Assembly (NCBI GenBank): GCA_035466375.1
Contig: DATIVB010000433.1
Span: forward strand, 1 to 48,120
DNA: 48,120 nt
Source: Chondromyces sp.
GTDB taxonomy: Bacteria > Acidobacteriota > Thermoanaerobaculia > Thermoanaerobaculales > Sulfomarinibacteraceae
Direction: 5' to 3'
The notes below the pieces were generated by a model. The model made no database searches, was not told where the DNA came from, and saw nothing but the letters and a program-made list of their open reading frames with translations. Positions 17,937 to 35,976 of the stretch are shown in pieces. Position numbers and translations under genes: made by a program. Position 1 is the stretch's first letter. Each line of letters opens with the position of its first letter.

Positions 17937-18150
17937 GTGTCTTCTGAAGCCGTTCGATCGCGGAGGTTTAACCTTTGAGTCTGTGCTATTCTGTCGAAAA
18001 TCGGGAACCACCGAACCAGCATGGATCACGGTGTCGGGACTGTGCACACACGACGGTCGGGACTCGGGATCGAGCACGGTTCGGACCGACACGGATCGGG
18101 GGGGCCCGGAGAAAAATCGCGATGCAACCGCCGTCGCCGGGAGAGGCACT

Positions 18151-19002
18151 GTGAGCTCGAAACGACAGGTCGACACGTCGTACGATCCGTTCGCGCAGGA
18201 GCCCGAGTACCTCGAGGTCAACCGCCTCTTCGTCGACACCCTGCCGCTTCTCGAATCGCGGACGCTGCTCGACCTCGCCTGCGGGACCTGCGTGCTCAGC
18301 GGCATGATGCGGGAGCGAGCCGCCGGTCCGCTGCACCTCGTGGGCCTGGACCTGTCGCGGGAGTCGCTCATGCTCGCCCGCGAGCACCTCGCCGGGGCCG
18401 GCCGGGGATCCGGAGGAGGCGGCGCCCGGACCCTGCTTCTCGAGGGCTCCGCCGACTGCCTGCCGCTGGCTGACGCCTCGGTGCAGGGGGTCGTGATGGG
18501 CAATGCCATCCAGCTGATCGACGACAAGGAGAGATTGGTCTCCGAGGTGGCTCGGGTCCTCGCTCCGGGCGGGTTCTTCGCCTTCAACACCTCGTTTTAC
18601 AGCGGCACCTACCTGCCTGGCACCGAGCGTCTGTACGTGCAGTGGGTGCAGAGGGCGCTGGAAGAGGTCACCGAGCATGCGCGCCGCGAGGGCATCCGGC
18701 GCACGAAGGGCAGTGGGCGGCGCGCCTTCAGCCAGCCGTGGCTGTCACGGGACGAGTACCGTCAGCTGCTCGAGCGCGGCGGGTTCGAGATCGCCTCCGT
18801 GCGCGAGCGCACCGTGGAGCTCACCCGCCACAGCTTCGAGACGATCGGCGCGTACTCGGGCTGCGCATCGGTGGTCCTGTCGGGCTGGCCGGTCGATCTC
18901 GCGTCGGCCGCCCTGCAGCGGGCGGCGGGCCCGACGCTCGAGGAGGCCGGGGTCGATGCTGTCCCCCGGCAGTGGCTCGAGATGGTCGCGACCAGGGCTT
19001 GA
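18151..19002 (+). CDS. Class I SAM-dependent methyltransferase
   Basis: GTG at 18151 preceded by GGGAGAGG. Motif I LLDLACGTCVL, motif II-like GVVMGNAIQLI, and LAPGGFFAFNT. Confidence 0.75.
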   Translation: MSSKRQVDTSYDPFAQEPEYLEVNRLFVDTLPLLESRTLLDLACGTCVLSGMMRERAAGPLHLVGLDLSRESLMLAREHLAGAGRGSGGGGARTLLLEGSADCLPLADASVQGVVMGNAIQLIDDKERLVSEVARVLAPGGFFAFNTSFYSGTYLPGTERLYVQWVQRALEEVTEHARREGIRRTKGSGRRAFSQPWLSRDEYRQLLERGGFEIASVRERTVELTRHSFETIGAYSGCASVVLSGWPVDLASAALQRAAGPTLEEAGVDAVPRQWLEMVATRA

Positions 19003-19023
19003 GCGCCAGTGGCTGGATCTGAG

Positions 19024-19818
19024 ATGGGGATCGCGGGCAAGGTGGCGGTGGTCACCGGCGGATCGAGCGGCATCGGCCGCGCGGTCGCCGTGGCGCTGGT
19101 CGAGCGGGGCGTCCGGGTGGTGGTGGTCGGACTCACCCAGGCGCGGGTCAGCGCCGTAGCCGGGGCGCTTCGCGCCCGCTCGGCCGATCCGGGCGACGTG
19201 CTGCCGCTGACGCTCGACGTGAGGAGCGAGTCCGACATGGAGCAGATGGCGCACTCGGTCCTGAGCCGTTTCGGCCGGATCGATCTGCTGGTCGCCGCGG
19301 CCGGCGTGGCGCGGCGCCCGGGCTCCCAGCGCCTGGTGCCCTACCCGGCGGCGCAGCTGCCGATCGACGAGTGGGACGCGATCCTCGACACCAACCTGCG
19401 CGGTACCTTTCTCGCCGATCGAGCGGTGTTGCCGACGATGCAGGCCCGCGGCAGCGGCACGATCGTCAACGTGTCGTCGTCACCGGGCGGTTATCGCGGA
19501 CAGGCCTTTGCCGCGCCCTACTGCGCCTCCAAGTTCGGCGTTCGCGGCCTGACCCAGTCGCTCGCCGAGGAGGTGCGTCGGCTGGGCATCAAGGTCCACT
19601 GCATCCTGCCGGACGCTATCGACACGCCCCTGCTCGACCGCAGCACGCTCGCCGCCCGCCTCGGGACCCCGCTGGCCCCGGAACGGGTGGCCGAGCTGGT
19701 GGTCAGCCTGTGGACCGAGCCGCAGGATTCACAGAATGTCGAGCCCGTGCTGCTGCCGGCGCGCCGCCCGGCAGCTCTCGACCTGCGGCGGGACGCGGGC
19801 TGGGAGTGGAAGCGATGA
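19024..19818 (+). CDS. Short-chain dehydrogenase/reductase (SDR)
   Basis: GKVAVVTGGSSGIGRA Rossmann motif and YCASK catalytic motif. An alternative GTG start lies at 19009. The stop overlaps the next start as ATGA. Confidence 0.8.
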   Translation: MGIAGKVAVVTGGSSGIGRAVAVALVERGVRVVVVGLTQARVSAVAGALRARSADPGDVLPLTLDVRSESDMEQMAHSVLSRFGRIDLLVAAAGVARRPGSQRLVPYPAAQLPIDEWDAILDTNLRGTFLADRAVLPTMQARGSGTIVNVSSSPGGYRGQAFAAPYCASKFGVRGLTQSLAEEVRRLGIKVHCILPDAIDTPLLDRSTLAARLGTPLAPERVAELVVSLWTEPQDSQNVEPVLLPARRPAALDLRRDAGWEWKR

Positions 19819-20333
19819 CCGTCTTGCGCCTGAAACCGCTCGGTTCGGGGGCGGCGGCTCGACTGCGGCGGGCGCGGTTCCTCTACGAGACCGGCCGCCG
19901 GGATGAGGCGATCGCCGAGGCCGAATCGATTCTCGTGGGTGATCCGGGGAGCTATCCGACCCGCTTCTTCCTCGCTCAGATGATGGCCAGCCGGGGCGAC
20001 ACCTGGCGGGCGATGCTGGAGTTCGGCCTTGTGCTGCGCGCCCACCCCCGGCACGTGGAATCGCTGCGCAGCCTCGGCGACCTGCATTTCAGCCTCGACG
20101 CCTTCGAGGCGGCGGCCGGATTTTATCGTCGGGTGCTCGAGATCGACCGCCGTGACGTGTCCGCGTGGCTCAAGCTCGGCGCCGTCGCGTTCGCGAGTGG
20201 CCGGCACGAGGATGCCGTGCTCGCGTATCAACGGGCGGTGCAGCTCGACAGGCGGCTGACTGCCAGCGGCCACACGATCGGGGATTTCCACAGTCTCATG
20301 CGCACTCTGCAGCATGCGCGGAACGGAGTCTGA
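19815..20333 (+). CDS. TPR-repeat protein
   Basis: 172 aa with 3-4 TPR-like 34-aa units (e.g. AWLKLGAVAFASGRHEDAVLAYQRAVQLD). ATGA overlap with the SDR. Confidence 0.7.
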   Translation: MTVLRLKPLGSGAAARLRRARFLYETGRRDEAIAEAESILVGDPGSYPTRFFLAQMMASRGDTWRAMLEFGLVLRAHPRHVESLRSLGDLHFSLDAFEAAAGFYRRVLEIDRRDVSAWLKLGAVAFASGRHEDAVLAYQRAVQLDRRLTASGHTIGDFHSLMRTLQHARNGV

Positions 20334-20334
20334 G

Positions 20335-22689
20335 ATGAACCGCCAGACACGAAAGCCATCGCCGAAGCTTCGCGCCGACCTCGACATCGTGCGCGGACCG
20401 AGCGACGGCGCGGGCGATGCGCCCTACCTTCTCAGCGACCCTGTTTCGGGCCGGATCTTCGAGATCGGGGAGCGTGAGCGCCTCACCCTGACACTCCTCG
20501 ACGGCACCTTGTCGCTCGAAGGTGTTCGCACGGTGTTGTCGACTCATCCCCTTTTTTCGAGCGGCGCCCTGCCGACCCCCGAAGGCCTGGCGAGCTTCGT
20601 CAACCAGTTGGCGAGGGAGGGGCTGTTCGTGGGCTCCGAACCGGGTGCGGTCATGCAGGCGCGGACAGGAAGCGAGGTGCGCCTGCACCGCGTCGCCAGC
20701 TTTCCGATTCGAGCGGCCCTGCGGTGGCTCGTGATCGTGCCGTGGGATTTCTTGAGCCTCGGCTCCCGATCGGACACCGTGAGCCCGTCTCGCTTGCGCG
20801 TCGGGAACCCTGACCCCCTGCTGGCTCAGCTGGCCCGCGGACTGGGTCCGCTCGTCGGCCGGTTCAGCCTCGCGTTGGTCGCCGTATTTTCGATCTTGGG
20901 GTTCGGTCTGCTGATCGCCAACTTCGGCCGCTGGTGGGACGGCGCGAGAGTCCTTTGGAGCCCCTGGGGGCTCCTTACAGTGGCGGTGGTCGGGGTGTTT
21001 CTGGTCCACATCCCACACCAGCTGGCGCACGGCGTGGCCTGCGTGCACTACGGTGGACGTGTGTCCGGGTGGGGAGTCCGTTTCCTCTTCCACGTCGTCC
21101 CGACCTTCTGGGTCGATATCTCCGACATCATGTGGCTGCGCGAAAAGCGGGACCGGCTGATGACGATCGGCGTCGGCCTGCTGTGGCAGCTGGGGGCCTT
21201 CTCGGCGGGGTTGGTCGGGTGGCTCGTGACCGACCGGGGGACCGGCCCTTCGGTGTTCTTTCTGGCGTTGTCGACGACCGCGCTGTTCGGCCTGTTTCTG
21301 AACGCCAACCCGTTCGCCAGACGGGACCTCTACCAGCTGCTGTCGGCCTGGCTGGACATGGAGGACTTGCGCTTGCGGGCGCGCGAGTACCTGCGCGCCT
21401 GGGTCCGGTGGCGGCCGGTGCCCGAGCCGCTGACCGGTCGCCAGCGGCGTTGGATCGGGGCCTATGGCGTGGCGGTCAACGTCTTTGGCCTCGTGATCAC
21501 CGGGGCGGTCGTCGCCCTCGCCCTGCGGGTCATCCGCGATCACGGCGAATCCGGCGCGGTCGGAGTGCTCTTTGCCGCCGGGCTCGTGTTCCAGGATCAC
21601 GTCCGCACGGTCTTCGATCAGGCCTGGTGGAAGCGCCTCACGGGTGCGATGCCCAGGACGGCGCGGTGGGTCGGGATCGGGGCGCTGCTGGTCGCCGCGA
21701 CCTGGGCGCTGTGCCTACCCTATCCGTACGAGGCCGGTGGTGATTTCGAGCTCGTGCCGCAGCAGGTGATCGAGATCCGATCCGAGCTGGAGGGCCTGGT
21801 CGGCGAGGTTTTCGTCCGCGAGGGAGACTGGGTCGAGCGAGGGGCGCCGGTGGCCGCCCTCGTGACGCACGTGCAGGAGCGGAACCTCCGTGCGGCGGAG
21901 GCCCGGATGGACGAGCTCCTGGCGCGGCGCTCGGCACTGTTGGCGGGAACGCGGCCCGAGGAGATCCACCGCGCGCGCACGGCCCTGCTGACCGCCGAGG
22001 CGCGGCTCGCCTGGAGCTCGGCCCGAGCGGACAGGTACGAGTCGCTCTTCAACCAGGGCGTGGTCGGCCTGCAGGAGCACGAGAACGCGATTCAGGTGCG
22101 GCGCATCAACGAGAGTGAGCTCGAGGAAGCGAGATCCTACCTGGAGATTCTCCTGCGCGGCACGAGGGCCGAGACCCTGGAGGCCGTGGAGGCCGAGATC
22201 CGGAGCCAGGAGGCGATCCTCGAGTACTTCCGAGGCGACGTGGAACGCGCCGTCCTGGTCAGTCCGATCGCGGGCTTCGTGACGACGCCCCGCATCGACC
22301 AGCTGCAGGGGAGGTATCTGAACCCGGGCCAGCGGGACCTGGTGGCCACGATCGCCGACACCCGGGTGGTGCAGGCCGAGATCGAGATCCCGGAGGAGGA
22401 CATCGAAGGGGTCGTGGTGGGCAAGAAGGTCAGACTTGTCACCTGGAGCTACCCGGGGATGGAGTTCGAGGGGCTGGTGACGGCGGTTGCGCCGGTGGCG
22501 ATCGAGGACGAGCTCAAGCGGCGCAAGGTCATCCGCGTCCTCACCGAGATCTCGAACCCGGATGGTCTTCTCAAACCCGACATGACCGGATTCGCGAAGG
22601 TCGAGATCACGGACCGGCCGCTGTGGGACGTGCTCTTCCGTCCGTTGTGGCGCTGGGTGCGGATCGAGGTCTGGTCGTGGGTCCCCTGA
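20335..22689 (+). CDS. Fusion protein: PqqD/RRE-like N-domain + M50 (site-2 protease)-like membrane domain + HlyD-type periplasmic adaptor
   Basis: ATG lies 1 nt after the TPR stop and is preceded by GGAG. See the three sub-features below for domain evidence. Confidence 0.8.
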   Translation: MNRQTRKPSPKLRADLDIVRGPSDGAGDAPYLLSDPVSGRIFEIGERERLTLTLLDGTLSLEGVRTVLSTHPLFSSGALPTPEGLASFVNQLAREGLFVGSEPGAVMQARTGSEVRLHRVASFPIRAALRWLVIVPWDFLSLGSRSDTVSPSRLRVGNPDPLLAQLARGLGPLVGRFSLALVAVFSILGFGLLIANFGRWWDGARVLWSPWGLLTVAVVGVFLVHIPHQLAHGVACVHYGGRVSGWGVRFLFHVVPTFWVDISDIMWLREKRDRLMTIGVGLLWQLGAFSAGLVGWLVTDRGTGPSVFFLALSTTALFGLFLNANPFARRDLYQLLSAWLDMEDLRLRAREYLRAWVRWRPVPEPLTGRQRRWIGAYGVAVNVFGLVITGAVVALALRVIRDHGESGAVGVLFAAGLVFQDHVRTVFDQAWWKRLTGAMPRTARWVGIGALLVAATWALCLPYPYEAGGDFELVPQQVIEIRSELEGLVGEVFVREGDWVERGAPVAALVTHVQERNLRAAEARMDELLARRSALLAGTRPEEIHRARTALLTAEARLAWSSARADRYESLFNQGVVGLQEHENAIQVRRINESELEEARSYLEILLRGTRAETLEAVEAEIRSQEAILEYFRGDVERAVLVSPIAGFVTTPRIDQLQGRYLNPGQRDLVATIADTRVVQAEIEIPEEDIEGVVVGKKVRLVTWSYPGMEFEGLVTAVAPVAIEDELKRRKVIRVLTEISNPDGLLKPDMTGFAKVEITDRPLWDVLFRPLWRWVRIEVWSWVP
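20362..20559 (+). other. PqqD/RRE-like segment
   Basis: PYLLSDPVSGRIFEIGERERLTLTLLDGTLSLEGVRTVL resembles the PqqD-family pattern (beta-strands, then x-LDG-x-x-S/T-x-x-E-I). By-eye call only. Confidence 0.4.
20850..21600 (+). other. M50-like multi-pass membrane domain with HQLAH (21016-21030) and NANPFARRD (21301-21327)
   Basis: Hydrophobic helices carry an HxxxH in a TM helix and a downstream NxxPxxxxD. These are the positions of the M50 HExxH and NPDG/LDG zinc-ligand motifs. Confidence 0.6.
21727..22686 (+). other. HlyD/membrane-fusion-protein-like adaptor domain
   Basis: Lipoyl-like half-motifs (GLVGEVFVREGDWVERGAPVAAL ... SPIAGFVT) flank a long coiled-coil hairpin, followed by a beta-barrel segment (GKKVRLVTWSYPGMEFEGLVTAVAP). 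Confidence 0.7.
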
Positions 22690-22705: not shown

Positions 22706-23707
22706 TCATGCAGGGTCAGGATTCCTCGGCCCGCCTTCCCGGTTCTTCTCGGGCACGACTCTGCGCGGGGCGTCGCGTGGTGCAGCCTGTTTCGGATTGG
22801 CAGCGAAGAAATCCCAGATCATCTCGCTCGCGTCGACGTCTCTGCTGGTCGTGCCGACGAGCAGGCGGGGCAAATACTGGAACCCGCCGGGCCAGGTGTG
22901 ACCGGTGCCCTCGACCGTGCACAGGATGACCGGAGAGCGGCAGGCGTCGAAGCCGCGGCACGACACGTTGCCCTTCGCGAAGGTCTCCTTCGACGTGTCC
23001 TTGCAGTCGTTCAGGGACCTCCAGACCTCGGCGGTTGCCGGCGCCGAGAGGAGATCACCGCCTCCTCCGGTCTCGCCGCCGTCGAAGGGAACGATCCGGT
23101 CCTTCGTGCCGTGAAAGTCGATCACCGCAATCGGGTGGTCCGGCTTGCACTGCGCCGCCATCTTGGGCGCCATCTGGCCGGCCACCGTGGCGATGGCCGC
23201 AAGCCGTCCGGACAGCTCGCAGCCCAGCCGATGGGTGAACGCACCGCCGTTGGACATGCCGGAGGCGTAGATTCGGCGCGGGTCGATCGTGTACCGCTCC
23301 ATCAAGGTATCGAGCAGGGCATCGACGAATCCCACGTCATCGATGCCGAGCTCCTCGGCTTCCCCGGTCCCGTGGAGCGCGTTCCACGAGCGTCCGACCC
23401 CGTCCGGGTAGACGACCATGAATCCGTGGCGATCCGCGACCTCGTCAAAGCCGGAGAGCTTTGCCTGGTCGTCGCCCTGCCCGTGGCGGCCGTGGAACGA
23501 GAGGACCAGCGGCATCGGTTTCCCTGCATCGTGCCCCTTCGGGAGGTGGACCAGAAAGGTCCGCGTGCGGCCGCCGTACTCAATCGACTCCGTGGGGTTG
23601 TCGCTGGCCTCCTTCGATTTCGAATCGCGGCGCTGGTTTGCAGTCGCACATGAGGCGCCGGCAACGAGAGTGAGCACCAAGACCGTCGTCAACGTGATTG
23701 ATCGCAT
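22706..23707 (-). CDS. Exported esterase, PHB-depolymerase/LpqC-like family
   Basis: Signal peptide ending LVAGASC (possible lipoprotein). Motifs LVLSFHGRHGQG, VVYPDG, and nucleophile elbow GMSNGG. Confidence 0.8.
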   Translation of the reverse strand: MRSITLTTVLVLTLVAGASCATANQRRDSKSKEASDNPTESIEYGGRTRTFLVHLPKGHDAGKPMPLVLSFHGRHGQGDDQAKLSGFDEVADRHGFMVVYPDGVGRSWNALHGTGEAEELGIDDVGFVDALLDTLMERYTIDPRRIYASGMSNGGAFTHRLGCELSGRLAAIATVAGQMAPKMAAQCKPDHPIAVIDFHGTKDRIVPFDGGETGGGGDLLSAPATAEVWRSLNDCKDTSKETFAKGNVSCRGFDACRSPVILCTVEGTGHTWPGGFQYLPRLLVGTTSRDVDASEMIWDFFAANPKQAAPRDAPRRVVPEKNREGGPRNPDPA

Positions 23708-23750: not shown

Positions 23751-24959
23751 CTATTCCGGATCGAAGGCGGTCCCGAGCTCCTCCTCGCGCACGGTTTCGA
23801 CCGCGGACTCCGGAAGGCCGAGCAGCTTGGTCGTGACCTCGGCGTTGTGCTCGCCGAGAAATGGTCCGCGCCGGCGGACCACCCAGGGCTCGCCGACGAA
23901 GCGGAACGGCATGCCGGGATAGCGCCCGCTCCCGTCCTCGGCCTCAGAGAACCAACCGCGCGCCTTCAGGTGCGGGTCCGATACGAGGTCCGCCGGGTCG
24001 AAGACCGCTCCCGCCGGAACTCCGGCCGTCTGGAGCTCGGCCATGGCGGTGCGGTGGTCGCGCCGCCGCGTCCAGTCGGCGATCATGTCGTCCAGGCTGT
24101 CGTGCGCTCTCATGCGATCGAACGGGGACGCGTAGGCCGGATCGTCTGCCATCTCCGGACGCCCGAGGGCCCGGCAGAGACAGCGCCACTCCTCATTGGA
24201 GCGCACCGCCAAGACCACCCAGCGGTCCGCGCCCTTGCATGGGTAGCAGCCTCGTGGGGCGGCGGTGCGGTGCCGGTTGCCGGTCGGTTCGGGTGCGACG
24301 CCGGTGATCGCCGTCTCCAGGAACTCCATGCCGGCCAGGGTACTGATCGCGGCCTCGAGTTGGGAGACCTCGACCCGCTGTCCGCGCCCGGTCTTCTGCC
24401 GTCGAACCAGCGCTGTGAGTGCCGCACAGGCCCCGGCGACACCGTTCGTGACATCCATTTCGCGGATGCGGCGGGGCGGCGAGCCCGGCGAGTAGGCGGT
24501 GAGTGCCTGCAGTCCCGACAGCGGTTCGATGCCCCCACCGTAGCCGCCGTACGGTGCGTCGGGGCCGGTGCTCCCGAATGCCGGCATCTGCACGAGGATG
24601 AGGTCGGGGCGCTGAGCCGCCAGCACCTCCCAGCCGAGTCCGAGCCGCTCGAGCACGCCCGGACGCGACGAGTCGACCACGACATCGGCCCAGGCGACGA
24701 GGGTCAGCGCACGGTCGCGGTGATCCGCCCGCTCGAGGTCGAGGGTCAGGGATTTCTTGCCGCGGTGCAGCTGCCAGAAGCGCGGGTGGGTGTCGTAACG
24801 CCGGTCCACGAGGTGGCCGCCCCGCATCCCATCGAGGCGGTGCGGATACTCGATCTTGAGCACCTCGGCGCCGAGGTCGGCGAGGATGCGGGTCGCGTGG
24901 GGACCCGCCCAGTCGTGGCTGAGGTCGAGGACGTTGACGCCCTCCAGCACCGCCGTCAT
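23751..24959 (-). CDS. Family III CoA-transferase (CaiB/BaiF/Frc-like), canonical paralog
   Basis: N-terminus LEGVNVLDLSHDWAGPHATRILADLGAEVLKIE. Catalytic-Asp motif MDVTNGVAGACAALTAL...GRGQRVEVSQLEA, with the Asp codon at 24453-24455. ATG overlaps the upstream stop as ATGA. Confidence 0.85.
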   Translation of the reverse strand: MTAVLEGVNVLDLSHDWAGPHATRILADLGAEVLKIEYPHRLDGMRGGHLVDRRYDTHPRFWQLHRGKKSLTLDLERADHRDRALTLVAWADVVVDSSRPGVLERLGLGWEVLAAQRPDLILVQMPAFGSTGPDAPYGGYGGGIEPLSGLQALTAYSPGSPPRRIREMDVTNGVAGACAALTALVRRQKTGRGQRVEVSQLEAAISTLAGMEFLETAITGVAPEPTGNRHRTAAPRGCYPCKGADRWVVLAVRSNEEWRCLCRALGRPEMADDPAYASPFDRMRAHDSLDDMIADWTRRRDHRTAMAELQTAGVPAGAVFDPADLVSDPHLKARGWFSEAEDGSGRYPGMPFRFVGEPWVVRRRGPFLGEHNAEVTTKLLGLPESAVETVREEELGTAFDPE

Positions 24960-26170
24960 GGTGACGCCTCCGATGCCGCATGGACCACACCGTCGGCGAT
25001 CAGCCCCGCCACCTCGGGGCCGGTCAGGCCGAGCGCCGCCGTGAGGACCTCCTCGGTGTGCTCGCCGAGCAGCGGCGCCCTCCGGTGGACGGCCGGCGCG
25101 CCGGCGACCCGGAAGGGCTCGCCGGCGACCACGTGCTCTCCGGCAGTGGGGTGCTCGAGGCGGTGGAAGAACCCCCGTTCGCGGTGGTGCGGGTGCTCGA
25201 GGACCTCCTCGGGATGGTTGAGCACGCCGAAAGCGAGGCCGCGCCGCCGGCCCTCGGTGAGGATCTCCTTCCGGTCGTGACGGTCGAGCCACGGTTGCAT
25301 GAGCGTCTCGAACTCTGTGCGCCGTGCCATGCGACCGGCGACGTGGCGGTACTCGGGGGCCTCGAGGCGCGGCTCGTCGAACATCTCGACCGCCCCCAGC
25401 CAGTTGCGGATCGGGCCGCCGATGACCGCGGCCCAGCCGTCTCGGCACGGGTAGAGCTGCCACGGCACCAGGGTGTGCTGATCGCCCTTGCGCCGCGCCA
25501 CCTGGCCATTGTGCAGGTTCTCGACGAGTGCGATCTCGATGTTGTCGAGCATGGCCTCCTGGATCGACACGTCGACCCAGCGTCCGCGGCCGCCCAACTG
25601 GCGGCCGTACACTGCCGCCAGCGCGCCGATGTAGGCCGCCATTCCGGCGCTGCAGTGGGCCACCTGGGGCCCGCCGGCGAGGGGCTCGCGGTCGGGATCG
25701 CCGGTGAGATGCATCCCGCCGCCGGTGGCATAGGCCACGATCTCGTCGCCGAGAAAGCCGCGGTACGGCCCATCCTGGCCGAAGGGTGTGACCGACACCA
25801 TGATCAGACCCGGATGCTCGGCCGCGAGCTCGTCGTAAGCGAGCCCGGTGCCGGCGAAGTGGCCGGGCGCCGAGCTCTCGATGACGATGTCGGCGGTGAG
25901 GGCGATCCTGCGCGCGAGGGCCTGACCCGCGGTTTGGCTGAGGTCCAGGGCGACGCTTTCTTTCGAGGTGTTGAGCCACAGGAAGGGGATGCTGGTCTCG
26001 ATCCCCGGCTCGCCGGCAAAGGGTCCGGTGCTGCGGGTCGGGTCGCCGTCGGGCGGCGGTTCGATCTTGATCACCCGCGCGCCGTAGGCGGCGAACAGCT
26101 TGCCGCAGTAGGGCGCCGCCACGCCCCCGCCGAGCTCGACGACGCGCAGGTGCTGCAGCGCGCCGCTCAA
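24956..26170 (-). CDS. Family III CoA-transferase paralog with His at the catalytic Asp position
   Basis: N-terminus LRVVELGGGVAAPYCGKLFAAYGARVIKIE. The equivalent motif reads AHCSAGMAAYIGALAAV...GRGRWVDVSIQEA, with the His codon at 25655-25657. TTG start overlaps the SDR stop as TTGA. Confidence 0.8.
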   Translation of the reverse strand: MSGALQHLRVVELGGGVAAPYCGKLFAAYGARVIKIEPPPDGDPTRSTGPFAGEPGIETSIPFLWLNTSKESVALDLSQTAGQALARRIALTADIVIESSAPGHFAGTGLAYDELAAEHPGLIMVSVTPFGQDGPYRGFLGDEIVAYATGGGMHLTGDPDREPLAGGPQVAHCSAGMAAYIGALAAVYGRQLGGRGRWVDVSIQEAMLDNIEIALVENLHNGQVARRKGDQHTLVPWQLYPCRDGWAAVIGGPIRNWLGAVEMFDEPRLEAPEYRHVAGRMARRTEFETLMQPWLDRHDRKEILTEGRRRGLAFGVLNHPEEVLEHPHHRERGFFHRLEHPTAGEHVVAGEPFRVAGAPAVHRRAPLLGEHTEEVLTAALGLTGPEVAGLIADGVVHAASEASP

Positions 26171-26961
26171 GCCGATCCTCCACTCTCATCCGGCCCGCTC
26201 CGCTTCCGCCGGCGCCGGCGCCCACCGAAAGGGGCCAGCACGGGATTGAGCAGAACGCAGTCCTCCGGCAGCTCGATCAGGTAGGCGATGAAGTCGGCCA
26301 CCCGCTCCGGCGGCAGAGCGTCCGGCGGCATCGGGACCGGGCCGTTCTGCTCCCAGAGCGGGGTGGCGACGGCGTCGGGCAGCAGGGTGTGGACCCGGAC
26401 ACCGCTCCGCCCCACCTCCTCCATCAGCGACTCGGAGAAGCCCCGGACCGCGAACTTGGAGGCGCAGTAGGCCCCGTCGAACGCACGCCCGCGCAGGCCC
26501 GAGGTCGAGGACAGGTGGATGATATGGCCGGACCTCGCCTCGAGCATCGCACCCAGCACCGCCCGAGTGGCCAGGAAGGTGCCGCGGAGGTTGACGGCGA
26601 GCACTCTCTCGAACTCCTCGGCCGAGGTCTCGGCGAGCGTCTTCGGCCCGCTCCCCGCGGGGCGGAGGATGCCGGCGGCGGTGACCAGGACGTCGATGCG
26701 GCCGAAGGCGCCGCGAACCTGCGCCGCCATCGCCTCCATGTCGCGCTCCGATGTCACGTCACATGCGATCGAAAGGACGTCGGCGGATCCCCGGCCTGCG
26801 TCGCGGGCCGCGGTCTCGGCGCTCTGCAGACGGCCGGGGTCGAGCTCTACGAGACAGAGGTTGAAGCCCCCTCGGGCAAGTGCGACGGCGGTTGCACGGC
26901 CGATGCCGCCGCCCGCTCCGGTGATGACGGCCGCCTGCCTTTCGGGTACGTTCTCGTTCAC
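26167..26961 (-). CDS. Short-chain dehydrogenase/reductase (SDR), paralog of the 19024 gene
   Basis: AAVITGAGGGIGRA and YCASK motifs. GTG start overlaps the upstream stop as GTGA. Arg-rich C-terminal tail. Confidence 0.8.
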   Translation of the reverse strand: MNENVPERQAAVITGAGGGIGRATAVALARGGFNLCLVELDPGRLQSAETAARDAGRGSADVLSIACDVTSERDMEAMAAQVRGAFGRIDVLVTAAGILRPAGSGPKTLAETSAEEFERVLAVNLRGTFLATRAVLGAMLEARSGHIIHLSSTSGLRGRAFDGAYCASKFAVRGFSESLMEEVGRSGVRVHTLLPDAVATPLWEQNGPVPMPPDALPPERVADFIAYLIELPEDCVLLNPVLAPFGGRRRRRKRSGPDESGGSA

Positions 26962-28493
26962 GAAGCCACCTCTCCTTCGAGATCTTTTTCGAGCCACCAG
27001 ACCTCGAGCCCGCCGCGCGGGTTGGCCTGGTAGCCCCATTCGCCTACGTCGTCGATCTGTCCGATCTCCGGGCCGAAGGGGTTGGCGGTGCCGAGGAAGA
27101 GGCCGCGCGGCGTCGACATCATGCGACGGGCGCCGTAGTTGAACGGGTTGCCGAAGCCGTTCCGGGTCACCGGCTCCCAGATCGCGCCGTCCCGGCTGCG
27201 CCAGAGGTCGAAGCCGCCGATCTTGTCGGGCAGATCGGCGATCGGAAGGTAGCGGAAGATCTGCGCCATACGCTGCGGCCAGGTGTCGAGGGGCAGGTAC
27301 GAGAGGAACACGCTCCAATCGTAGGTGCCGACGTACAGCCAGCCGTCGTGCGAGCACGAGTTCCAGAGATAACCTGCGAAGAAGTTGTCGAAGCCAGGCC
27401 CGAGTCGGGAGAGCGGCTCCTTGAAACCGTCGGGCGTGTGCCTCGGCGCGCCGACGAGGAGCTCCCACGAGTCGTCGTCGGCGATTCGCAGCAGCTCCGC
27501 CGCCGCCGGTCCGATCCGGTAGGTGCGGTCGTAGCCGCCGTGCTGGATGCCGCTGCCGATGTAGAGACGACCGTCGTGGGCGCACATCGTGGCGACGCCC
27601 TCGTTGAGCGGCCCGCGGTAGGCGCCCTCGGTGAGAACCCGCGTCCACTGGTAAGGTGGTTCGCCGCGTGCGGCGGTCTTCCACACCTGGAAGCCCCGGG
27701 GGTTGACGGTGCCCGCGTACAGGTGGTCGTTGAAGACCGCGAGGTCGAAGACGGCGACGTTCCCGGGATCTCCGAACGAGGGGCTGTTGGCGAGCCGCCA
27801 CGGTCTGTTCGCCGGGTCGGAGTTCTCGAGCACCAGGGCGAGGCCGGCCGTACAGTCCTCGACCCCGAGGTGGCTGAGGCCCTGCCAGCCGGCGGATCGC
27901 CCTGCCGGCGATGTGTAGAGGCGGTCCTTGAAGGTCCTGAGCGCCCGGTAGGTGTTGACTCCGGGGTCGGCCTCCTGCCGGCTCACGGGCTCGAATCGGC
28001 GCCCGTCCTCCGAGCGCAGGATGATCGACGGCTGCCCGCTCCGCGACGGCGCCCAGGTGCAGACGTAGAGCGCCGGAGCCTGGTCGCTGGCGCCCCGAAA
28101 AACGCTCATTCCGCGGTAGCCGATGTCGCGCGGGACCTGAACGCCGCCCTCGAGCTCGACCCACGGCGAGCGGAAGACCTGCCGCCACGATCGGACGTGC
28201 GGGTCGAACCTCCAGATCTCGGCGCGGCGGTCGATCTCGTAAACGTCGTCGGGGCACCGTACCGGCCAAAAGTTCAGGTTCGGCGGGCGGGCGGCCTTGA
28301 TGCTGCAGAGGTTGGCGCGGGTGGTGCCGACGTACAGGGCCCCCGCGAACCAGGCCATGGAGTGGGCGTAGGCGTTCCAGCCGTCGCCGAAGCCGCCTTC
28401 GGCGATGCGGACGAAGGGGTTCTCGACCGGCGCCGCGACCAGCGGGGCGGCGCGCCGCAGAGGCTCGACCGGGGGTCGTCGCTGCCGTTTCAC
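26958..28493 (-). CDS. Cytoplasmic 7-bladed beta-propeller-like protein (hypothetical)
   Basis: 511 aa with no signal peptide. Seven spaced LY-x-G-T/S-type motifs (ALYVGT, ALYVCT, RLYTSP, HLYAGT, RLYIGS, WLYVGT, GLFLGT). Asp-box-like SxDGxxW/F elements (SRDGAIW, SEDGRRF). GTGA overlap at the start. Confidence 0.7.
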   Translation of the reverse strand: MKRQRRPPVEPLRRAAPLVAAPVENPFVRIAEGGFGDGWNAYAHSMAWFAGALYVGTTRANLCSIKAARPPNLNFWPVRCPDDVYEIDRRAEIWRFDPHVRSWRQVFRSPWVELEGGVQVPRDIGYRGMSVFRGASDQAPALYVCTWAPSRSGQPSIILRSEDGRRFEPVSRQEADPGVNTYRALRTFKDRLYTSPAGRSAGWQGLSHLGVEDCTAGLALVLENSDPANRPWRLANSPSFGDPGNVAVFDLAVFNDHLYAGTVNPRGFQVWKTAARGEPPYQWTRVLTEGAYRGPLNEGVATMCAHDGRLYIGSGIQHGGYDRTYRIGPAAAELLRIADDDSWELLVGAPRHTPDGFKEPLSRLGPGFDNFFAGYLWNSCSHDGWLYVGTYDWSVFLSYLPLDTWPQRMAQIFRYLPIADLPDKIGGFDLWRSRDGAIWEPVTRNGFGNPFNYGARRMMSTPRGLFLGTANPFGPEIGQIDDVGEWGYQANPRGGLEVWWLEKDLEGEVAS

Positions 28494-29422
28494 GGGCGGT
28501 CCAGAATGGGCGTCGCATCGCGCGCCGTGCGGGCGGCGCCGACGTGAAGAAAGCGGGTCACGGCATCGACCAGGGGTTGGGGCTGAAGCGCCGGGAAGAA
28601 GTGACCGACGCCGGGCACCACGACCCGCTCGATCGCAGGCTGCACGGCCGCCAGCCCCTCGAGGCTCGGCATCGTGTAGGTGAGCTCGCCGTACACGGCC
28701 AGAAGCGGCAGCTCCAAGGCTGCGACAGCTTCGTGTGACAGCCCTGCCGGGTCCTTGACGTCGTCGGCCAGGGAGGTGGTCTTCAACAGCTGCCGCCAGC
28801 GCTCGGCGGAGCGCTGCGAGCCGTTCCAGCTCTCGAACGGGAGAAACACCGTCGGGTCGGAACTCTGCCGCGGTCCGCGCCGCGCCGACCGCTCGGCGAG
28901 CGCCTCGAGCAGCCGGTAGTCGATCTCCGCGTCGCCCTCGAGGACAATGCCGAGCTCGCTGTAGGTCCGCTCGAGGGATTCCCAGTTGGGGCAGTCGGAG
29001 AGCCGGGGCCGCGGCTGGAAGAGCCGCAGTATGGCGTCGACCAGGGTCAGGCTGGCCACGCGTCCGGGGGCGAGCACGGCGGCGTGCAGGGCGACGGCGC
29101 CGCCGAAGCTGTGGCCGACGAGGTGGGCGCGCTCGACTCCGAGGTGGTCGAGCAGGGCCAGCAGGTCGGCGGCCATGGCGGCGGTCGTGTAGCCGGCGGC
29201 GGTGATCTCGCTGCGACCGTGGCCGCGGAGGTCGTAGGCGGTCAGAGGAAAGAGCTGCCCGAGGGGGCGCCCCACACCCCAGTACCAGAAGGCCAGGTTG
29301 GCGCCGAGGCCGTGGATGAGCACGACCTCGGCGGCGGGCGCGGCTGGGGTCGCCGGCCCGCCCGCAGGGGGGTCGAGCCGCTCATAGGCGAGGCGGACAC
29401 CGGGCAGCACGGCGAACGGCAT
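28490..29422 (-). CDS. Alpha/beta-fold hydrolase
   Basis: VVLIHGLGAN, nucleophile elbow GHSFGG and C-terminal GVGHF. ATG lies 2 nt after the upstream stop. Confidence 0.8.
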   Translation of the reverse strand: MPFAVLPGVRLAYERLDPPAGGPATPAAPAAEVVLIHGLGANLAFWYWGVGRPLGQLFPLTAYDLRGHGRSEITAAGYTTAAMAADLLALLDHLGVERAHLVGHSFGGAVALHAAVLAPGRVASLTLVDAILRLFQPRPRLSDCPNWESLERTYSELGIVLEGDAEIDYRLLEALAERSARRGPRQSSDPTVFLPFESWNGSQRSAERWRQLLKTTSLADDVKDPAGLSHEAVAALELPLLAVYGELTYTMPSLEGLAAVQPAIERVVVPGVGHFFPALQPQPLVDAVTRFLHVGAARTARDATPILDRP

Positions 29423-29424
29423 TC

Positions 29425-31044
29425 CTACTCCACGTAGCCCAGAGCCTTGAGCCGGGCCATGACCTCCGCCTCGGCGTCCTCGTCGAGGGCCTGCTCGTTC
29501 TTCGACAGGCGCTGCTCCGGGAAGGGGTCGGGCGCCAGAGTCGGCGGTCCCGATTCGACCGGCTGCCGGGCCAGGTGCTCGCGGGTGAAGAGCCCGTCCG
29601 GGATCCGACCCTCGAGATCGACCGGGATCGACAGCCCGAGGCTGTACAGGGCGATCGGCGTTACGTCCACCAGGTCGACCGCGGTCTCCCGCCGGCCTGG
29701 CTCGATGCCGGGCCCGGCCGCGATGAACACGCCTTCGGGTCGGTGGGTGCCAAGTGTGGCCTGCCGCGGCCGCAGCGGCTGCTCGGCGTTGAGGATCGAG
29801 ACGAAGCCGCCGTCGCGGACCGTCAGCAGGAGGTCCGGCGCCATCTCCATGGTCGCGCCGGGATAGGCCTGCTCGCGGGTCAGGACCGAGGTCACGACCG
29901 GCTGTCCGTCCGCCGGGTCGCGCCAGGCGAGCAGCTCGTCGGCGATCTGCCGGCGGAACGCCTCGTAGCGGTCGGCGGGGACCCCGGCGCCGCCGTCCTC
30001 GGCGCGGCGGATAAACACCCCGTTGGACGACGGCGTGAGGCAGAAGGCGCTCGTGCGGTCCCAGTCGAGCATGCCGACGTGGCTCTTCAGGCGATCGACG
30101 GTGAGGGCGCCGGTCGTGTCGCGGTCGGTCTCGTCCCGCCAGCCGAGGTATCCCCGCTCGGCGAGCCAGGCATTGAGATAGACGACCTCCCAGGTCGGAC
30201 CGAAGCCGTGGTCGGAGACCACGAAGATCCGCGCGTCTCGGCCGCCGAGCTCGGCGAGGCGGCGCAGGTAGGAGTCCACCTCCCGGAAGTAGTCGAGGCA
30301 CAGTCCGCGCACCCGCCGGTCCTCGGGTGACGCCGTGCGATCGTCGTACATCCCGGGATCGAGATACCGCCAGAAGACGTGCTGTAGCTTGTCGACGCCG
30401 TCGAACACCACTGCGGTCACGTCGCTGGGGTCCTCGGTCATCAGCATCTGGGCGATCTCGAACCACTGGCGTTCCCGCCTGCGGTGCAGGGCGGTCCAGT
30501 CGTCGTAGTCCTCCTCGGGCAGGCCCTGGATGGACTTCTTCTCGAGGTCGAGGTCCATCGCCAGCTCGTGGCGGTCGAAGCCGGGGAGCTTCTGGATCTC
30601 GTCGAACAGCTCGGGTGGCCACATCGCGCGGCGCAGGTGGCGGTAGGGGACGAAGCCCGAGATCGTGTGTCCTGCAACCGGGCGCGGCGGCGCGAGGCCG
30701 AAGAAGTTGAGCGCCGTGGCGCGCCGCCCCTGCCGGCTGACGATCTCCCACAGGGTCTCGACCCGCCGGTCGCGGGAGGAGTTCATCGAGAAGAAGACCG
30801 AGCCGTTCCGTTCCTCGGCGCGGATGAAATCGTAGATGCCGTGGTTGCCGGGGCTGCGGCCCGTCATGACGGTCGTCCACGCCGGCGGGGTCAAGGGGTT
30901 GACCGTCGACATCAGATCGGCCCACTGGCCGCGGTCCCGCAGCTCGCCGAGGAAGGGCGTCACGCCTTCCTCGATCAGCTGATCGAGGACCGTGAACGTC
31001 GCCCCGTCGAGGCCGAAAATGAGGGTCTTGGGCGCCTCAGGCAT
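29425..31044 (-). CDS. Alkaline-phosphatase-superfamily enzyme, nucleotide pyrophosphatase/phosphodiesterase (NPP)-like
   Basis: LIFGLDGAT (metal Asp), LTPPAWTTVMTGRSPGNHGI (Thr nucleophile region), FVVSDHGFG. The start overlaps the ACP stop by 8 nt. Confidence 0.8.
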   Translation of the reverse strand: MPEAPKTLIFGLDGATFTVLDQLIEEGVTPFLGELRDRGQWADLMSTVNPLTPPAWTTVMTGRSPGNHGIYDFIRAEERNGSVFFSMNSSRDRRVETLWEIVSRQGRRATALNFFGLAPPRPVAGHTISGFVPYRHLRRAMWPPELFDEIQKLPGFDRHELAMDLDLEKKSIQGLPEEDYDDWTALHRRRERQWFEIAQMLMTEDPSDVTAVVFDGVDKLQHVFWRYLDPGMYDDRTASPEDRRVRGLCLDYFREVDSYLRRLAELGGRDARIFVVSDHGFGPTWEVVYLNAWLAERGYLGWRDETDRDTTGALTVDRLKSHVGMLDWDRTSAFCLTPSSNGVFIRRAEDGGAGVPADRYEAFRRQIADELLAWRDPADGQPVVTSVLTREQAYPGATMEMAPDLLLTVRDGGFVSILNAEQPLRPRQATLGTHRPEGVFIAAGPGIEPGRRETAVDLVDVTPIALYSLGLSIPVDLEGRIPDGLFTREHLARQPVESGPPTLAPDPFPEQRLSKNEQALDEDAEAEVMARLKALGYVE

Positions 31045-35968: not shown

Positions 35969-35976
35969 CGGACGCC

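What the first reader, a model, noticed from the sequence alone, without database searches (positions are those of the whole stretch)
20335..22689. Three-part fusion: PqqD/RRE-like domain + M50 site-2-protease-like membrane core with HQLAH instead of HExxH + HlyD-type adaptor
A single 784-aa protein joins three parts.
1. An N-terminal segment resembles PqqD-type peptide-recognition elements.
2. A multi-pass domain has the M50 zinc-ligand layout: an HxxxH in a TM helix at 21016-21030 and NxxPxxxxD at 21301-21327.
3. A complete membrane-fusion-protein module has lipoyl halves, a long coiled-coil hairpin and a beta-barrel.

The general-base Glu of HExxH is Gln (CAG, one nucleotide from GAG). The metal ligands look preserved while hydrolysis may be lost, so this could be a substrate-binding pseudo-protease used as a gate or receptor for an export adaptor.

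No ABC/RND/MFS pump partner and no precursor-peptide ORF are evident nearby. The gene closes an operon convergent on the lipid PKS operon, so it may export the lipid or handle an unseen peptide.
Basis: partly seen in the sequence, partly recalled or inferred. Interest (0 to 1): 0.65.

Follow-up and report, generated by a model that had tools for sequence, protein, structure and literature searches.

The report
Inactive membrane protease fused to export adaptor
This gene encodes one membrane protein that joins a peptide-recognition domain, a site-2-protease core whose catalytic residue is naturally knocked out, and a periplasmic export adaptor. Relatives with the same defect sit inside lipid-synthesis gene clusters in several bacterial lineages, which points to an undescribed non-cutting role in handling a lipid product.

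Summary
ORF 20335-22689 (+) encodes a 784-aa protein with three parts:
- a PqqD/RRE-like N-terminal domain;
- an M50 (site-2 protease) transmembrane core carrying HQLAH (21016-21030) and NxxPxxxxD (21301-21327);
- a MacA/EmrA-type periplasmic adaptor.

Gln is not a sequencing error. All 11 orthologs (49-100% identity) have HQxxH, with both CAG and CAA codons, and every metal ligand is invariant.

The fusion itself is not rare. The aa 1-440 query matches about 5,500 protein clusters, and most of the best 150 are 700-850-aa fusions. About 60% of those 150 keep HExxH.

The target lies in a sub-branch where the motif has decayed. That sub-branch, not the HExxH branch, is encoded beside PfaA-type lipid synthase clusters (18 of 22 informative loci versus 0 of 4). 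The clusters also carry a secreted lipoprotein esterase, an unknown 511-aa protein, SDRs and CoA-transferases. No pump or precursor peptide is consistently linked.

Most likely this is a non-proteolytic, envelope-spanning component of that lipid pathway. The mechanism is inferred, not shown. I found no paper describing it.

The parts
20335..22689 (+). Whole gene: 784-aa RRE / M50-like / periplasmic-adaptor fusion protein
   Evidence: ORF, SD sequence and start position. Orthologs are 780-784 aa long and start at the same Met.
20356..20628 (+). Cytoplasmic PqqD/RRE-like winged-helix domain (aa ~8-98)
   Evidence: Profile hits to PqqD 3g2b, TfuB1 and TbiB1. AF2 shows three strands then three helices. 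Foldseek gives TM-score 0.67-0.71 to lasso RREs.
20863..21594 (+). M50 (site-2 protease)-like transmembrane core (aa ~177-420). TM segments: 177-195, 206-234, 280-298, 306-324, 379-397, and a weakly hydrophobic 404-420
   Evidence: NCBIfam NF041824 at E=7e-31. Profile hits to mjS2P, SpoIVFB and RseP only. Hydropathy profile. Helices in the AF2 model.
21007..21033 (+). H225-I-P-H228-Q229-L-A-H232-G: HExxH-equivalent motif with Gln in place of the general-base Glu, plus a clade-specific extra His225
   Evidence: Invariant in 11 orthologs. Gln codon is CAG or CAA in different loci. Aligns to HELGH of mjS2P and SpoIVFB and to HQLGH of the SpoIVFB E44Q mutant.
21301..21327 (+). N323-A-N-P326-F-A-R-R-D331: motif carrying the third metal ligand (Asp)
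   Evidence: N323, N325, P326 and D331 are invariant. The motif lies 95 aa after the His motif, compared with 94-95 aa in HExxH relatives. It aligns to NLIPAFPMDG of mjS2P.
21661..21717 (+). Last TM helix (aa 443-461), the membrane anchor of the adaptor module. It follows a positively charged loop
   Evidence: Hydropathy and charge counts. The orientation is inferred from known M50 and adaptor topologies.
21730..22605 (+). Periplasmic adaptor (MFP/PAP) module: lipoyl halves, alpha-hairpin (aa 512-638, 21868-22248) and beta-barrel (aa 669-757)
   Evidence: Pfam HlyD_D23 and HlyD_3. NCBIfam adaptor models. Foldseek hits to MacA, EmrA and AcrA. PDB sequence hits to EmrA, HlyD-type MFP and MacA.
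22615..22686 (+). Trp-rich C-terminal helix RPLWDVLFRPLWRWVRIEVWSWVP, a hallmark of the family
   Evidence: Nearly invariant in the clade. Also present in the consensus of distant relatives.
19009..19818 (+). Upstream SDR, whose end overlaps the start of the TPR gene
   Evidence: Pfam adh_short. Syntenic in L002/L004 and L005-7.
19815..20333 (+). 172-aa TPR protein with no signal peptide. Its stop codon is 1 nt before the fusion's ATG
   Evidence: Pfam TPR families. Syntenic in all HQ-clade loci, including L003. Weak homologs occur in degenerate-motif loci.
17983..19002 (+). SAM-dependent methyltransferase
   Evidence: Pfam. Homologs are present in L005-7, L015 and L019-21.
22706..23707 (-). 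Convergent secreted esterase of the extracellular PHA-depolymerase type, with a signal peptide and a lipobox-like Cys
   Evidence: NF050058 scores 167.6 bits against a cut-off of 150. N-termini of orthologs. It is adjacent to or near the fusion in most lipid-linked loci.
23751..26170 (-). Two tandem family-III CoA-transferase genes (23751-24959 and 24956-26170) with an ATGA overlap
   Evidence: Pfam CoA_transf_3. Frame analysis against the 806-aa fused ortholog.
26167..26970 (-). Second SDR
   Evidence: Pfam. Synteny.
26958..28493 (-). Conserved 511-aa protein of unknown family ('unk511'), the most faithful neighbour of the fusion
   Evidence: No Pfam, NCBIfam or PDB hit. Homologs at 46-80% identity occur in at least 12 loci.
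28490..31357 (-). Alpha/beta hydrolase (28490-29422), alkaline-phosphatase-superfamily phosphodiesterase (29425-31044) and stand-alone ACP-like protein (31037-31357)
   Evidence: Pfam. Translation containing a DLAFESID motif. Synteny.
31362..44547 (-). Pfa-type lipid synthase: AT-DH-DH protein (31362-34571), KS protein (34565-36046) and a PfaA-like ER-KS-AT-ACP-KR-DH protein (35977-44547)
   Evidence: Pfam. TIGR02813 omega_3_PfaA scores 1145 bits against a cut-off of 1010.

Best explanation
**Shown.**
- The gene encodes an inner-membrane protein with three parts: a cytoplasmic PqqD-like RRE domain, an M50 site-2-protease core, and a periplasmic MacA/EmrA-type adaptor.
- In the M50 core both His ligands and the Asp ligand are conserved, but the catalytic Glu is Gln.
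- The protein belongs to a very large, uncharacterised family of RRE-M50-adaptor fusions.
- Within that family it sits in a sub-branch where the protease motif has decayed. That sub-branch is encoded next to PfaA-type 'secondary lipid' synthase clusters. The clusters also carry a secreted lipoprotein esterase, a conserved unknown 511-aa protein, SDRs, a methyltransferase and CoA-transferases.

**Inferred.**
- The protein no longer cuts peptides.
- The protease-derived membrane domain is kept as a substrate-binding or gating groove in the inner membrane.
- The RRE docks a pathway protein or peptide on the cytoplasmic side.
- The adaptor oligomerises and reaches an outer-membrane channel.
- In this way the product of the Pfa-type synthase, or a carrier-bound precursor, is delivered to the periplasm or outer membrane, where the lipoprotein esterase acts on it.
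- The topology is 7 TM helices, N-terminus in and C-terminus out.
For: **Architecture.**

**Gln is selected, not an error.**
- H225, H228, Q229, H232, N323, P326 and D331 are invariant in 11 orthologs at 49-100% identity.
- Both CAG and CAA codons are used for the Gln.

**E-to-Q abolishes M50 activity but not substrate binding.**
- SpoIVFB E44Q 'completely abolishes the proteolytic activity', and its substrate complex is superimposable on wild type (PMC11486902).
- That mutant (8vjm, HQLGH) aligns to the target's motif.

**Catalysis is dispensable in this context.**
- Relatives in the same gene context have no His motif at all.
- A rough NJ tree puts the HQ clade inside a group of 62 sequences that contains only 3 with HExxH. 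A separate group of 75 sequences is entirely HExxH.

**Link to the lipid cluster.**
- The order SDR, TPR, fusion, then convergent esterase through to PfaA, is conserved in the window, L001/L008, L002/L004 and L005-7.
- Motif-degenerate relatives at 24-34% identity lie beside homologs of PfaA, the KS protein, PfaC, the esterase, CoA-transferase, unk511, the phosphodiesterase or ACP. This holds in L013-16, L018-21, L031, L032, L035, L039, L043, L044 and L051.
- After de-duplication, 18 of 22 informative non-HExxH loci are linked, against 0 of 4 HExxH loci. My Fisher calculation gives p about 0.005.

**Part of the pathway is extracytoplasmic.** The esterase passes the NCBIfam model for extracellular PHA depolymerase and carries a signal peptide or lipobox in orthologs.

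**Precedent for adaptors in Pfa-type clusters.** The zeamine cluster has zmn6-8, an HlyD protein plus ABC components (PMC3547906).
Against: - No energised pump (ABC, RND or MFS) and no outer-membrane factor is consistently encoded nearby. How transport would be driven is therefore unknown.
- The RRE domain is well conserved, but no ligand for it was identified. RREs normally bind peptides, not lipids.
- The metal ligands are strictly conserved in the HQ clade although they are lost elsewhere. A metal-dependent activity in this clade is therefore not excluded.
- Four non-HExxH loci with at least 5 kb of flank show no lipid genes (L025, L026, L028/29, L037/38).
- Only four independent HExxH contexts were sampled, and the metagenome scan was biased towards degenerate forms.
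- Foldseek did not recover solved M50 structures.
- No expression or biochemical data exist.
Confidence: 0.5

Rival explanations
1. It is a conventional periplasmic adaptor that works with a pump and an outer-membrane factor encoded elsewhere. The M50-like and RRE parts only anchor or regulate the complex, for example by sensing a pathway protein, and have no direct role in substrate passage.
For: The adaptor module is complete and resembles MacA and EmrA. All characterised adaptors need an energised inner-membrane partner (established knowledge; review PMC8277102). One relative has MMPL and ABC genes nearby (L018).
Against: No pump is syntenic in the window or in most loci. The M50-like core and the RRE are conserved about as strongly as the adaptor in the clade, which would be unexpected for a mere anchor.
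Confidence: 0.2
2. It still handles a peptide or protein rather than the lipid. Candidates are the signal peptide of the adjacent lipoprotein esterase, or an unlinked RiPP-like precursor. It binds this substrate through the RRE and the M50 groove and escorts or secretes it through the adaptor.
For: The ancestry is peptide-oriented, combining an RRE with an M50 protease. M50 proteases EpeP, TglG and TmoG act on RiPPs, and EpeP is thought to both cleave and export (PMC10885120). The RRE is conserved. The secreted esterase is the most constant immediate neighbour.
Against: No conserved small ORF lies in the intergenic gaps. The esterase has an ordinary Sec or lipoprotein signal, so it needs no special exporter. 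The co-occurrence extends to the whole lipid synthase set, not just the esterase.
Confidence: 0.15
3. It is still an active metalloprotease that uses a non-canonical general base, for example the clade-specific invariant His225 one helical turn before Gln229. It cleaves a pathway protein or peptide.
For: H225, H228, H232 and D331 are strictly invariant in the clade although catalysis appears dispensable in other branches. H225 co-occurs with Q229 in P0001-11, P0028-30 and P0032.
Against: E-to-Q abolishes activity in SpoIVFB. One HQxxH protein, P0061, lacks His225. Relatives in the same kind of lipid-cluster context lack all ligands.
Confidence: 0.12
4. The Gln is a sequencing or assembly error or a strain-specific lesion, and the protein is an ordinary HExxH protease.
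For: CAG is one nucleotide away from GAG.
Against: Eleven orthologs from independent assemblies, plus L001, L003 and P0028-32, all have Gln, encoded by either CAG or CAA.
Confidence: 0.01

Closest known systems
M50 site-2 proteases (mjS2P 3B4R, SpoIVFB, RseP) and RiPP-associated M50 proteases (EpeP/YydH, TglG/TmoG, the daptide protease family NF041824)
   Same: Homologous transmembrane core. A His-x-x-x-His motif lies in a TM helix, and NxxPxxxxD follows 94-95 residues later. A beta-hairpin follows the motif helix.
   Different: The catalytic Glu is Gln. The score is far below the NCBIfam family cut-offs (107 against 300). There is an extra N-terminal TM helix plus an RRE, and a periplasmic adaptor is fused at the C-terminus. 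The gene context is a lipid cluster, not a sigma-factor or RiPP locus.
Engineered SpoIVFB E44Q (PDB 8VJM)
   Same: It carries the same HQxxH sequence. It is catalytically dead yet binds substrate like wild type.
   Different: It is a laboratory mutant used as a tool. Here the substitution is natural, fixed and under purifying selection in a clade.
PqqD and RiPP recognition elements (PqqD 3G2B; lasso-peptide B1 proteins TfuB1 and TbiB1)
   Same: The same winged-helix fold of three strands and three helices, with profile-level similarity over the whole domain.
   Different: It is fused to a membrane protein. No precursor peptide gene or RiPP-modifying enzyme is nearby. It does not reach the Pfam PqqD threshold.
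Periplasmic adaptor proteins MacA, EmrA and HlyD, and the adaptor of the heterocyst-glycolipid exporter DevBCA-HgdD (named from my own knowledge)
   Same: Lipoyl domain, long hairpin, beta-barrel and an N-terminal TM anchor. The hairpin tip carries an R567-x3-L571 motif reminiscent of the RLS tip motif; this is my reading of the sequence. Adaptor genes beside PKS- or Pfa-type lipid genes have precedent in DevB and in zeamine Zmn6.
   Different: No adjacent ABC or MFS pump. The inner-membrane partner is a covalently attached pseudo-protease. The DevB model scores 41.7 bits against a cut-off of 129. There is no membrane-proximal domain; a Trp-rich C-terminal helix takes its place.
Rhomboid pseudoproteases (iRhoms, Derlins; named from my own knowledge)
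   Same: The concept is shared: an intramembrane protease fold that has lost catalysis and is reused to bind or move clients in a membrane.
   Different: An unrelated fold and kingdom. This is an analogy only.

Membership tests
Peptidase family M50 (site-2 protease) | HExxH zinc-binding and catalytic motif in a transmembrane helix | tested here: not met
   The motif is HQLAH. Both His residues are kept, and the general-base Glu is replaced by Gln in all 11 orthologs.
Peptidase family M50 (site-2 protease) | Third metal ligand Asp within NxxPxxxxDG in a later TM region | tested here: met
   N323-A-N-P-F-A-R-R-D331. The Asp is invariant. The Gly after it is Leu in the four closest sequences. Spacing from the His motif is 95 aa, against 94-95 aa in HExxH relatives.
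Peptidase family M50 (site-2 protease) | Sequence-profile homology to bona fide M50 proteins | tested here: met
   Profile A5 hits only mjS2P (1.4e-4), SpoIVFB (3.9e-3), and Aquifex RseP and E. coli RseP weakly, with the motifs aligned. HExxH homologs P0019, P0020, P0023 and P0025 pass the PF02163 cut-off. The target itself has no PF02163 hit at E<=1.
Peptidase family M50 (site-2 protease) | Fold similarity to solved S2P structures | tested here: inconclusive
   Foldseek of the aa 1-470 model returned no M50 chain among its top 50 hits. Helical membrane bundles are poorly separated by this method.
Peptidase family M50 (site-2 protease) | Zinc-dependent intramembrane proteolysis | not testable with these tools
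   This needs biochemistry. The E44Q precedent predicts loss of activity.
NCBIfam NF041824, daptide biosynthesis intramembrane metalloprotease | Score at or above the curated cut-off (300 bits) | tested here: not met
   The score is 107.6 bits. The target is related but not a member.
PqqD / RiPP recognition element | Winged-helix fold of three strands followed by three helices | tested here: met
   AF2 places strands at 17-20, 31-34 and 41-44, and helices at 46-54, 61-70 and 82-94. Foldseek matches TfuB1 and TbiB1 with probability 0.94-0.99 and TM-score 0.67-0.71.
PqqD / RiPP recognition element | Profile similarity to PqqD or RRE sequences | tested here: met
   3g2b at E=1.1e-5, 6jx3_B at 5e-5 and 5v1u at 1e-3 with domain profile A3. 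3g2b at 2e-6 with A1. Pfam PF05402 is only sub-threshold, in 9 of 27 homologs.
PqqD / RiPP recognition element | Binds the leader of a co-encoded precursor peptide | tested here: not met
   No conserved small ORF was found in the intergenic regions, and no RiPP enzymes are present in the window. Binding itself is not testable here.
Periplasmic adaptor / membrane fusion protein (HlyD, MacA, EmrA type) | Lipoyl domain, alpha-hairpin and beta-barrel following an N-terminal membrane anchor | tested here: met
Periplasmic adaptor / membrane fusion protein (HlyD, MacA, EmrA type) | Co-encoded energised inner-membrane transporter (ABC, RND or MFS) | tested here: not met
   None is adjacent. The MFS gene at 6851-8656 is not syntenic. 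An ABC signature was found only in L018 and L042.
Periplasmic adaptor / membrane fusion protein (HlyD, MacA, EmrA type) | Outer-membrane factor (TolC-like) partner | not tested
   None is in the window or in the annotated loci. The rest of the genome is not available.
DevB-family glycolipid exporter adaptor (TIGR02971) | Score at or above the curated cut-off (129 bits) together with devCA ABC genes | tested here: not met
   The score is 41.7 bits, and there are no ABC genes.

The most novel reading that the evidence does not exclude
The motif-degenerate RRE-M50-adaptor proteins are the inner-membrane component of a new kind of trans-envelope system. An intramembrane pseudoprotease, not an ABC, RND or MFS pump, takes up an amphipathic Pfa-made lipid, or its ACP-bound precursor docked through the RRE. 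It passes the lipid into an adaptor/TolC-type conduit, and an outer lipoprotein esterase then releases or remodels it.
Probability: 0.2. Interest if true: 0.85.

Novelty: new variant of a known kind. Interest (0 to 1): 0.62.

Why it matters
**A bacterial intramembrane pseudoprotease.** Intramembrane pseudoproteases are known mainly from eukaryotic rhomboids. Here a bacterial M50 fold appears to have lost catalysis repeatedly while remaining conserved, and it is fused to an export adaptor. The HQxxH clade is a natural counterpart of the E-to-Q substrate-trap mutants used in the laboratory.

**A handle on poorly understood lipid clusters.** The products and cellular destinations of most Pfa-like clusters outside the omega-3 producers are uncharacterised (PMC3098273). 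The fusion is consistently linked to such clusters, together with a secreted esterase and an unknown 511-aa protein. That gives a testable route to two questions: what these clusters make, and how the product leaves the cytoplasm.

**Annotation.** These genes are currently labelled 'efflux RND transporter periplasmic adaptor subunit' or 'putative peptide zinc metalloprotease'. Both labels miss the architecture.

Tried and rejected
- Pfam on the target alone found neither M50 nor PqqD. Family profiles were needed.
- phmmer of the N-terminal 110 aa against the PDB gave only a spurious ParM hit.
- Foldseek of the full model returned only adaptors. Foldseek of aa 1-470 gave no M50 structure.
- The search for related loci failed with the broad alignments A1 and A6 because no stretch was conserved enough. 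A2 and A7 worked.
- Six literature searches found no paper on this fusion. They covered M50 + HlyD, PqqD + M50 + HlyD, 'peptidase M50' + HlyD, RRE + M50, and PUFA synthase + HlyD. The M50 hits in efflux reviews were false matches such as residue numbers and DOIs.
- A search for a precursor peptide, by tblastx of the window's intergenic gaps against related loci, found nothing convincing.
- A regex scan for ABC ATPases in all loci found them only in L018 and L042.
- The sequencing-error explanation was rejected.
- Membership of the daptide, YydH or DevB families was rejected on curated cut-offs.
- My first gene model for the CoA-transferase, a single 824-aa ORF, was wrong. It is two overlapping genes.


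Full report
**1. The observation**

The ORF is real. ATG is at 20335, preceded by GGAG, and lies 1 nt after the TGA of the upstream TPR gene. The stop codon ends at 22689. An alternative ATG at 20314 is not supported, because all 11 orthologs begin at the Met equivalent to 20335 and are 780-784 aa long.

**2. The three parts**

*C-terminal adaptor.*
- Pfam HlyD_D23 and HlyD_3 hit aa 476-751, and NCBIfam adaptor models also hit.
- The AF2 model (mean pLDDT 81.5) shows lipoyl strands, a four-helix hairpin at 512-638, a beta-barrel at 669-757 and a Trp-rich terminal helix.
- Foldseek gives MacA, EmrA, AcrA and MexA at E between 5e-19 and 1e-11. The PDB sequence search gives EmrA, an HlyD-type MFP and MacA.

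*Middle M50-like core.*
- The target alone gives no Pfam M50 hit. NCBIfam NF041824, the daptide intramembrane metalloprotease, matches aa 154-418 at E=7e-31, below its cut-off. The YydH/LiaK model matches weakly.
- Eleven of 27 homologs hit PF02163. Four of them pass the gathering score, with the match covering HExxH.
- A profile built from the target's aa 170-345 plus 22 HExxH relatives hits only M50 proteases in the PDB. These are mjS2P 3b4r (1.4e-4), SpoIVFB 8vjl (3.9e-3), SpoIVFB-E44Q 8vjm, and RseP homologs weakly. The His motif and NxxPxxxxDG align motif to motif.
- The distance between the two motifs is 94-95 residues in the target and in all HExxH relatives checked.
- Foldseek did not recover M50 structures, so fold-level confirmation is inconclusive.

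*N-terminal domain.*
- A 55-sequence profile hits PqqD 3g2b (1.1e-5) and the lasso-peptide RREs TfuB1 (5e-5) and TbiB1 (1e-3) across the whole domain. The full-length family profile hits 3g2b at 2e-6.
- AF2 gives three strands followed by three helices.
- Foldseek matches TfuB1 and TbiB1 with probability 0.94-0.99, TM-score 0.67-0.71 and rmsd 3.3-4.3 Å.

*Topology.* Hydropathy finds TM segments at 177-195, 206-234, 280-298, 306-324, 379-397 and 443-461, plus a weak one at 404-420. Combining this with the known orientation of M50 cores and adaptor anchors, I infer 7 TM helices, with the RRE in the cytoplasm and the adaptor in the periplasm. This is inference.

**3. Is the Gln real and selected?**

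- All 11 orthologs (49-100% identity) have H-[IV]-P-H-Q-x-x-H. H225, H228, Q229, H232, N323, N325, P326 and D331 are invariant.
- The Gln codon is CAG in the window, L002, L003 and L005, and CAA in L001 and L008. This is purifying selection for Gln, not an error.
- In SpoIVFB the same E-to-Q change 'completely abolishes the proteolytic activity', while the substrate complex stays superimposable on wild type (PMC11486902).

**4. The family**

- phmmer with aa 1-440 against 1.84 billion representatives finds 5,478 clusters at E<=1e-3 and 1,634 at E<=1e-10. Most of the best 150 are 700-850-aa fusions. The architecture is therefore common.
- It is nevertheless uncharacterised. Sources name these proteins 'putative peptide zinc metalloprotease protein' or 'efflux RND transporter periplasmic adaptor subunit'.
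- Among the best 150 representatives, 92 have HExxH, 51 have no recognisable motif, 6 have HQxxH and 1 has HSxxH.
- A rough NJ tree of the core region separates a group of 75 sequences, all HExxH, from a group of 62. The second group holds the degenerate forms, a monophyletic HQ clade of 13, and only 3 HExxH sequences.

**5. Gene context**

*In the window.*
- A methyltransferase, an SDR and a 172-aa TPR protein precede the gene on the same strand, with overlapping or abutting stops and starts.
- Sixteen nt downstream, on the other strand, an operon ends that reads PfaA-like (ER-KS-AT-ACP-KR-DH), KS, AT-DH-DH, ACP, phosphodiesterase, alpha/beta hydrolase, unk511, SDR, two CoA-transferases and esterase. 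TIGR02813 scores 1145 bits for the PfaA-like protein, above its cut-off.
- The esterase passes the NCBIfam model for extracellular PHA depolymerase. In most orthologs it has a signal peptide with a lipobox-like Cys.

*In orthologous loci.* The same order is kept in Acidobacteriota MAGs and metagenome contigs: L001/L008, L002/L004 and L005-7.

*In distant relatives.*
- All five relatives from the first search that lack the His motif lie beside homologs of the same genes. These are P0012, P0013, P0016, P0017 and P0018, at 28-31% identity, and they include a Gammaproteobacteria MAG. The corresponding loci are L013-16 and L018.
- The HExxH relatives P0014, P0019, P0022 and P0024 do not.
- A metagenome scan seeded with the degenerate 'GEIAK' subgroup gave 34 more loci. 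None has HExxH. Eleven of them carry unk511, esterase, methyltransferase, CoA-transferase, ACP, phosphodiesterase or Pfa genes: L019-21, L031, L032, L035, L039, L043, L044, L047 and L051.

*Overall count.* After removing duplicates and counting only loci with at least 5 kb of flank, 18 of 22 non-HExxH loci are lipid-linked, against 0 of 4 HExxH loci. My calculation gives Fisher p of about 0.005. Two caveats apply: the HExxH sample is small, and the scan was biased.

*Missing partners.*
- No ABC, RND or outer-membrane factor gene is in the window. The MFS gene at 6851-8656 is not syntenic.
- An ABC signature occurs only in L018 and L042.
- No conserved small ORF is in the intergenic gaps.

**6. 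Interpretation**

The target is a natural E-to-Q variant of an M50 core. It sits in a lineage where catalysis is evidently dispensable, because relatives in the same kind of lipid-cluster context have lost every ligand. The core, the RRE, the adaptor and the Trp-rich tail all remain conserved.

The most economical reading is a non-proteolytic, envelope-spanning component of the Pfa-type lipid pathway:
- the protease-derived domain acts as a binding or gating groove;
- the RRE docks a pathway protein;
- the adaptor reaches the outer membrane;
- the secreted lipoprotein esterase acts on the delivered product.

Adaptors in Pfa- or PKS-type lipid clusters have precedent in zeamine Zmn6-8 and, from my own knowledge, DevB. 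The RiPP M50 protease EpeP is thought to both cleave and export (PMC10885120).

Three things remain unexplained:
- the energy source for transport;
- the RRE ligand;
- why the HQ clade alone keeps all metal ligands, together with an extra invariant His225.

The rival explanations are an adaptor for an unlinked pump, a peptide or esterase escort, and a non-canonical active protease. None is excluded.

**7. Novelty**

Every part belongs to a known family, and the fusion is present in databases. I found no paper describing it or its link to Pfa-like clusters. I file it as a new variant of a known kind: a periplasmic adaptor with a fused pseudo-M50/RRE inner-membrane module. It fails the defining HExxH test for an active M50 peptidase, and it fails the 'adjacent pump' expectation for an adaptor.

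Noticed in passing
window 26958-28493 (-): A 511-aa protein with no Pfam, NCBIfam or PDB match. Its homologs, at 46-80% identity, lie near the fusion in at least 12 loci from different lineages. It is the most faithful marker of this lipid cluster, and its function is unknown.
   Followed up: partly
window 22706-23707 (-): The convergent esterase passes the NCBIfam model for extracellular type-1 short-chain PHA depolymerase (167.6 bits against a cut-off of 150). In most orthologs it has a signal peptide ending in a lipobox-like Cys, so it is probably a lipoprotein acting outside the cytoplasm.
   Followed up: partly
window 23751-26170 (-): The family-III CoA-transferase is two genes with an ATGA stop/start overlap (24956-26170 and 23751-24959). 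In L008 and L015 the same two halves form one protein of 805-806 aa.
   Followed up: yes
window 35977-44547 (-): The PfaA-like protein carries an N-terminal FabK/NMO-type enoyl reductase fused to KS-AT-ACP-KR-DH, rather than a separate PfaD. A stand-alone ACP-like gene (31037-31357) lies within the cluster.
   Followed up: no
L005-L007 (1-7335) and L016 (13814-18221): Sulfate-activation genes (PAPS reductase-like CysD, CysN/C, CysQ-like), a sulfotransferase and, in L016, a sulfatase lie next to the cluster. The lipid may therefore be sulfated in some lineages.
   Followed up: no
L017 2971-5506: The closest HExxH-bearing relative (P0014) is followed by four tandem paralogous ORFs of about 205 aa with no Pfam match. 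These may be substrates of the active form of the family.
   Followed up: no
L011 5977-7947 and L012 5937-7850: Two HExxH relatives are each preceded by a gene encoding a GAF domain fused to an HlyD-type adaptor. This suggests that paired adaptors occur in that branch.
   Followed up: no
window 13371-17888 (+): A 1,505-aa protein with MopE-type metal-binding motifs lies upstream on the same strand. A homolog (35% identity over 832 aa) lies upstream in L003, and a MopE/Trypsin_2 protein lies upstream in L004.
   Followed up: no
window 22615-22686 (+): The last 24 residues (RPLWDVLFRPLWRWVRIEVWSWVP) are almost invariant in the clade. The ending ..WSWxP is kept even in relatives at 25% identity. 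It is probably an interfacial helix that takes the place of the adaptor's membrane-proximal domain.
   Followed up: partly
window 19-1548 (+) and 46371-47450 (-): One ORF has a Peptidase_S74 (endosialidase chaperone) domain. Another is a metallo-beta-lactamase/rhodanese fusion. Both are unrelated to the finding.
   Followed up: no
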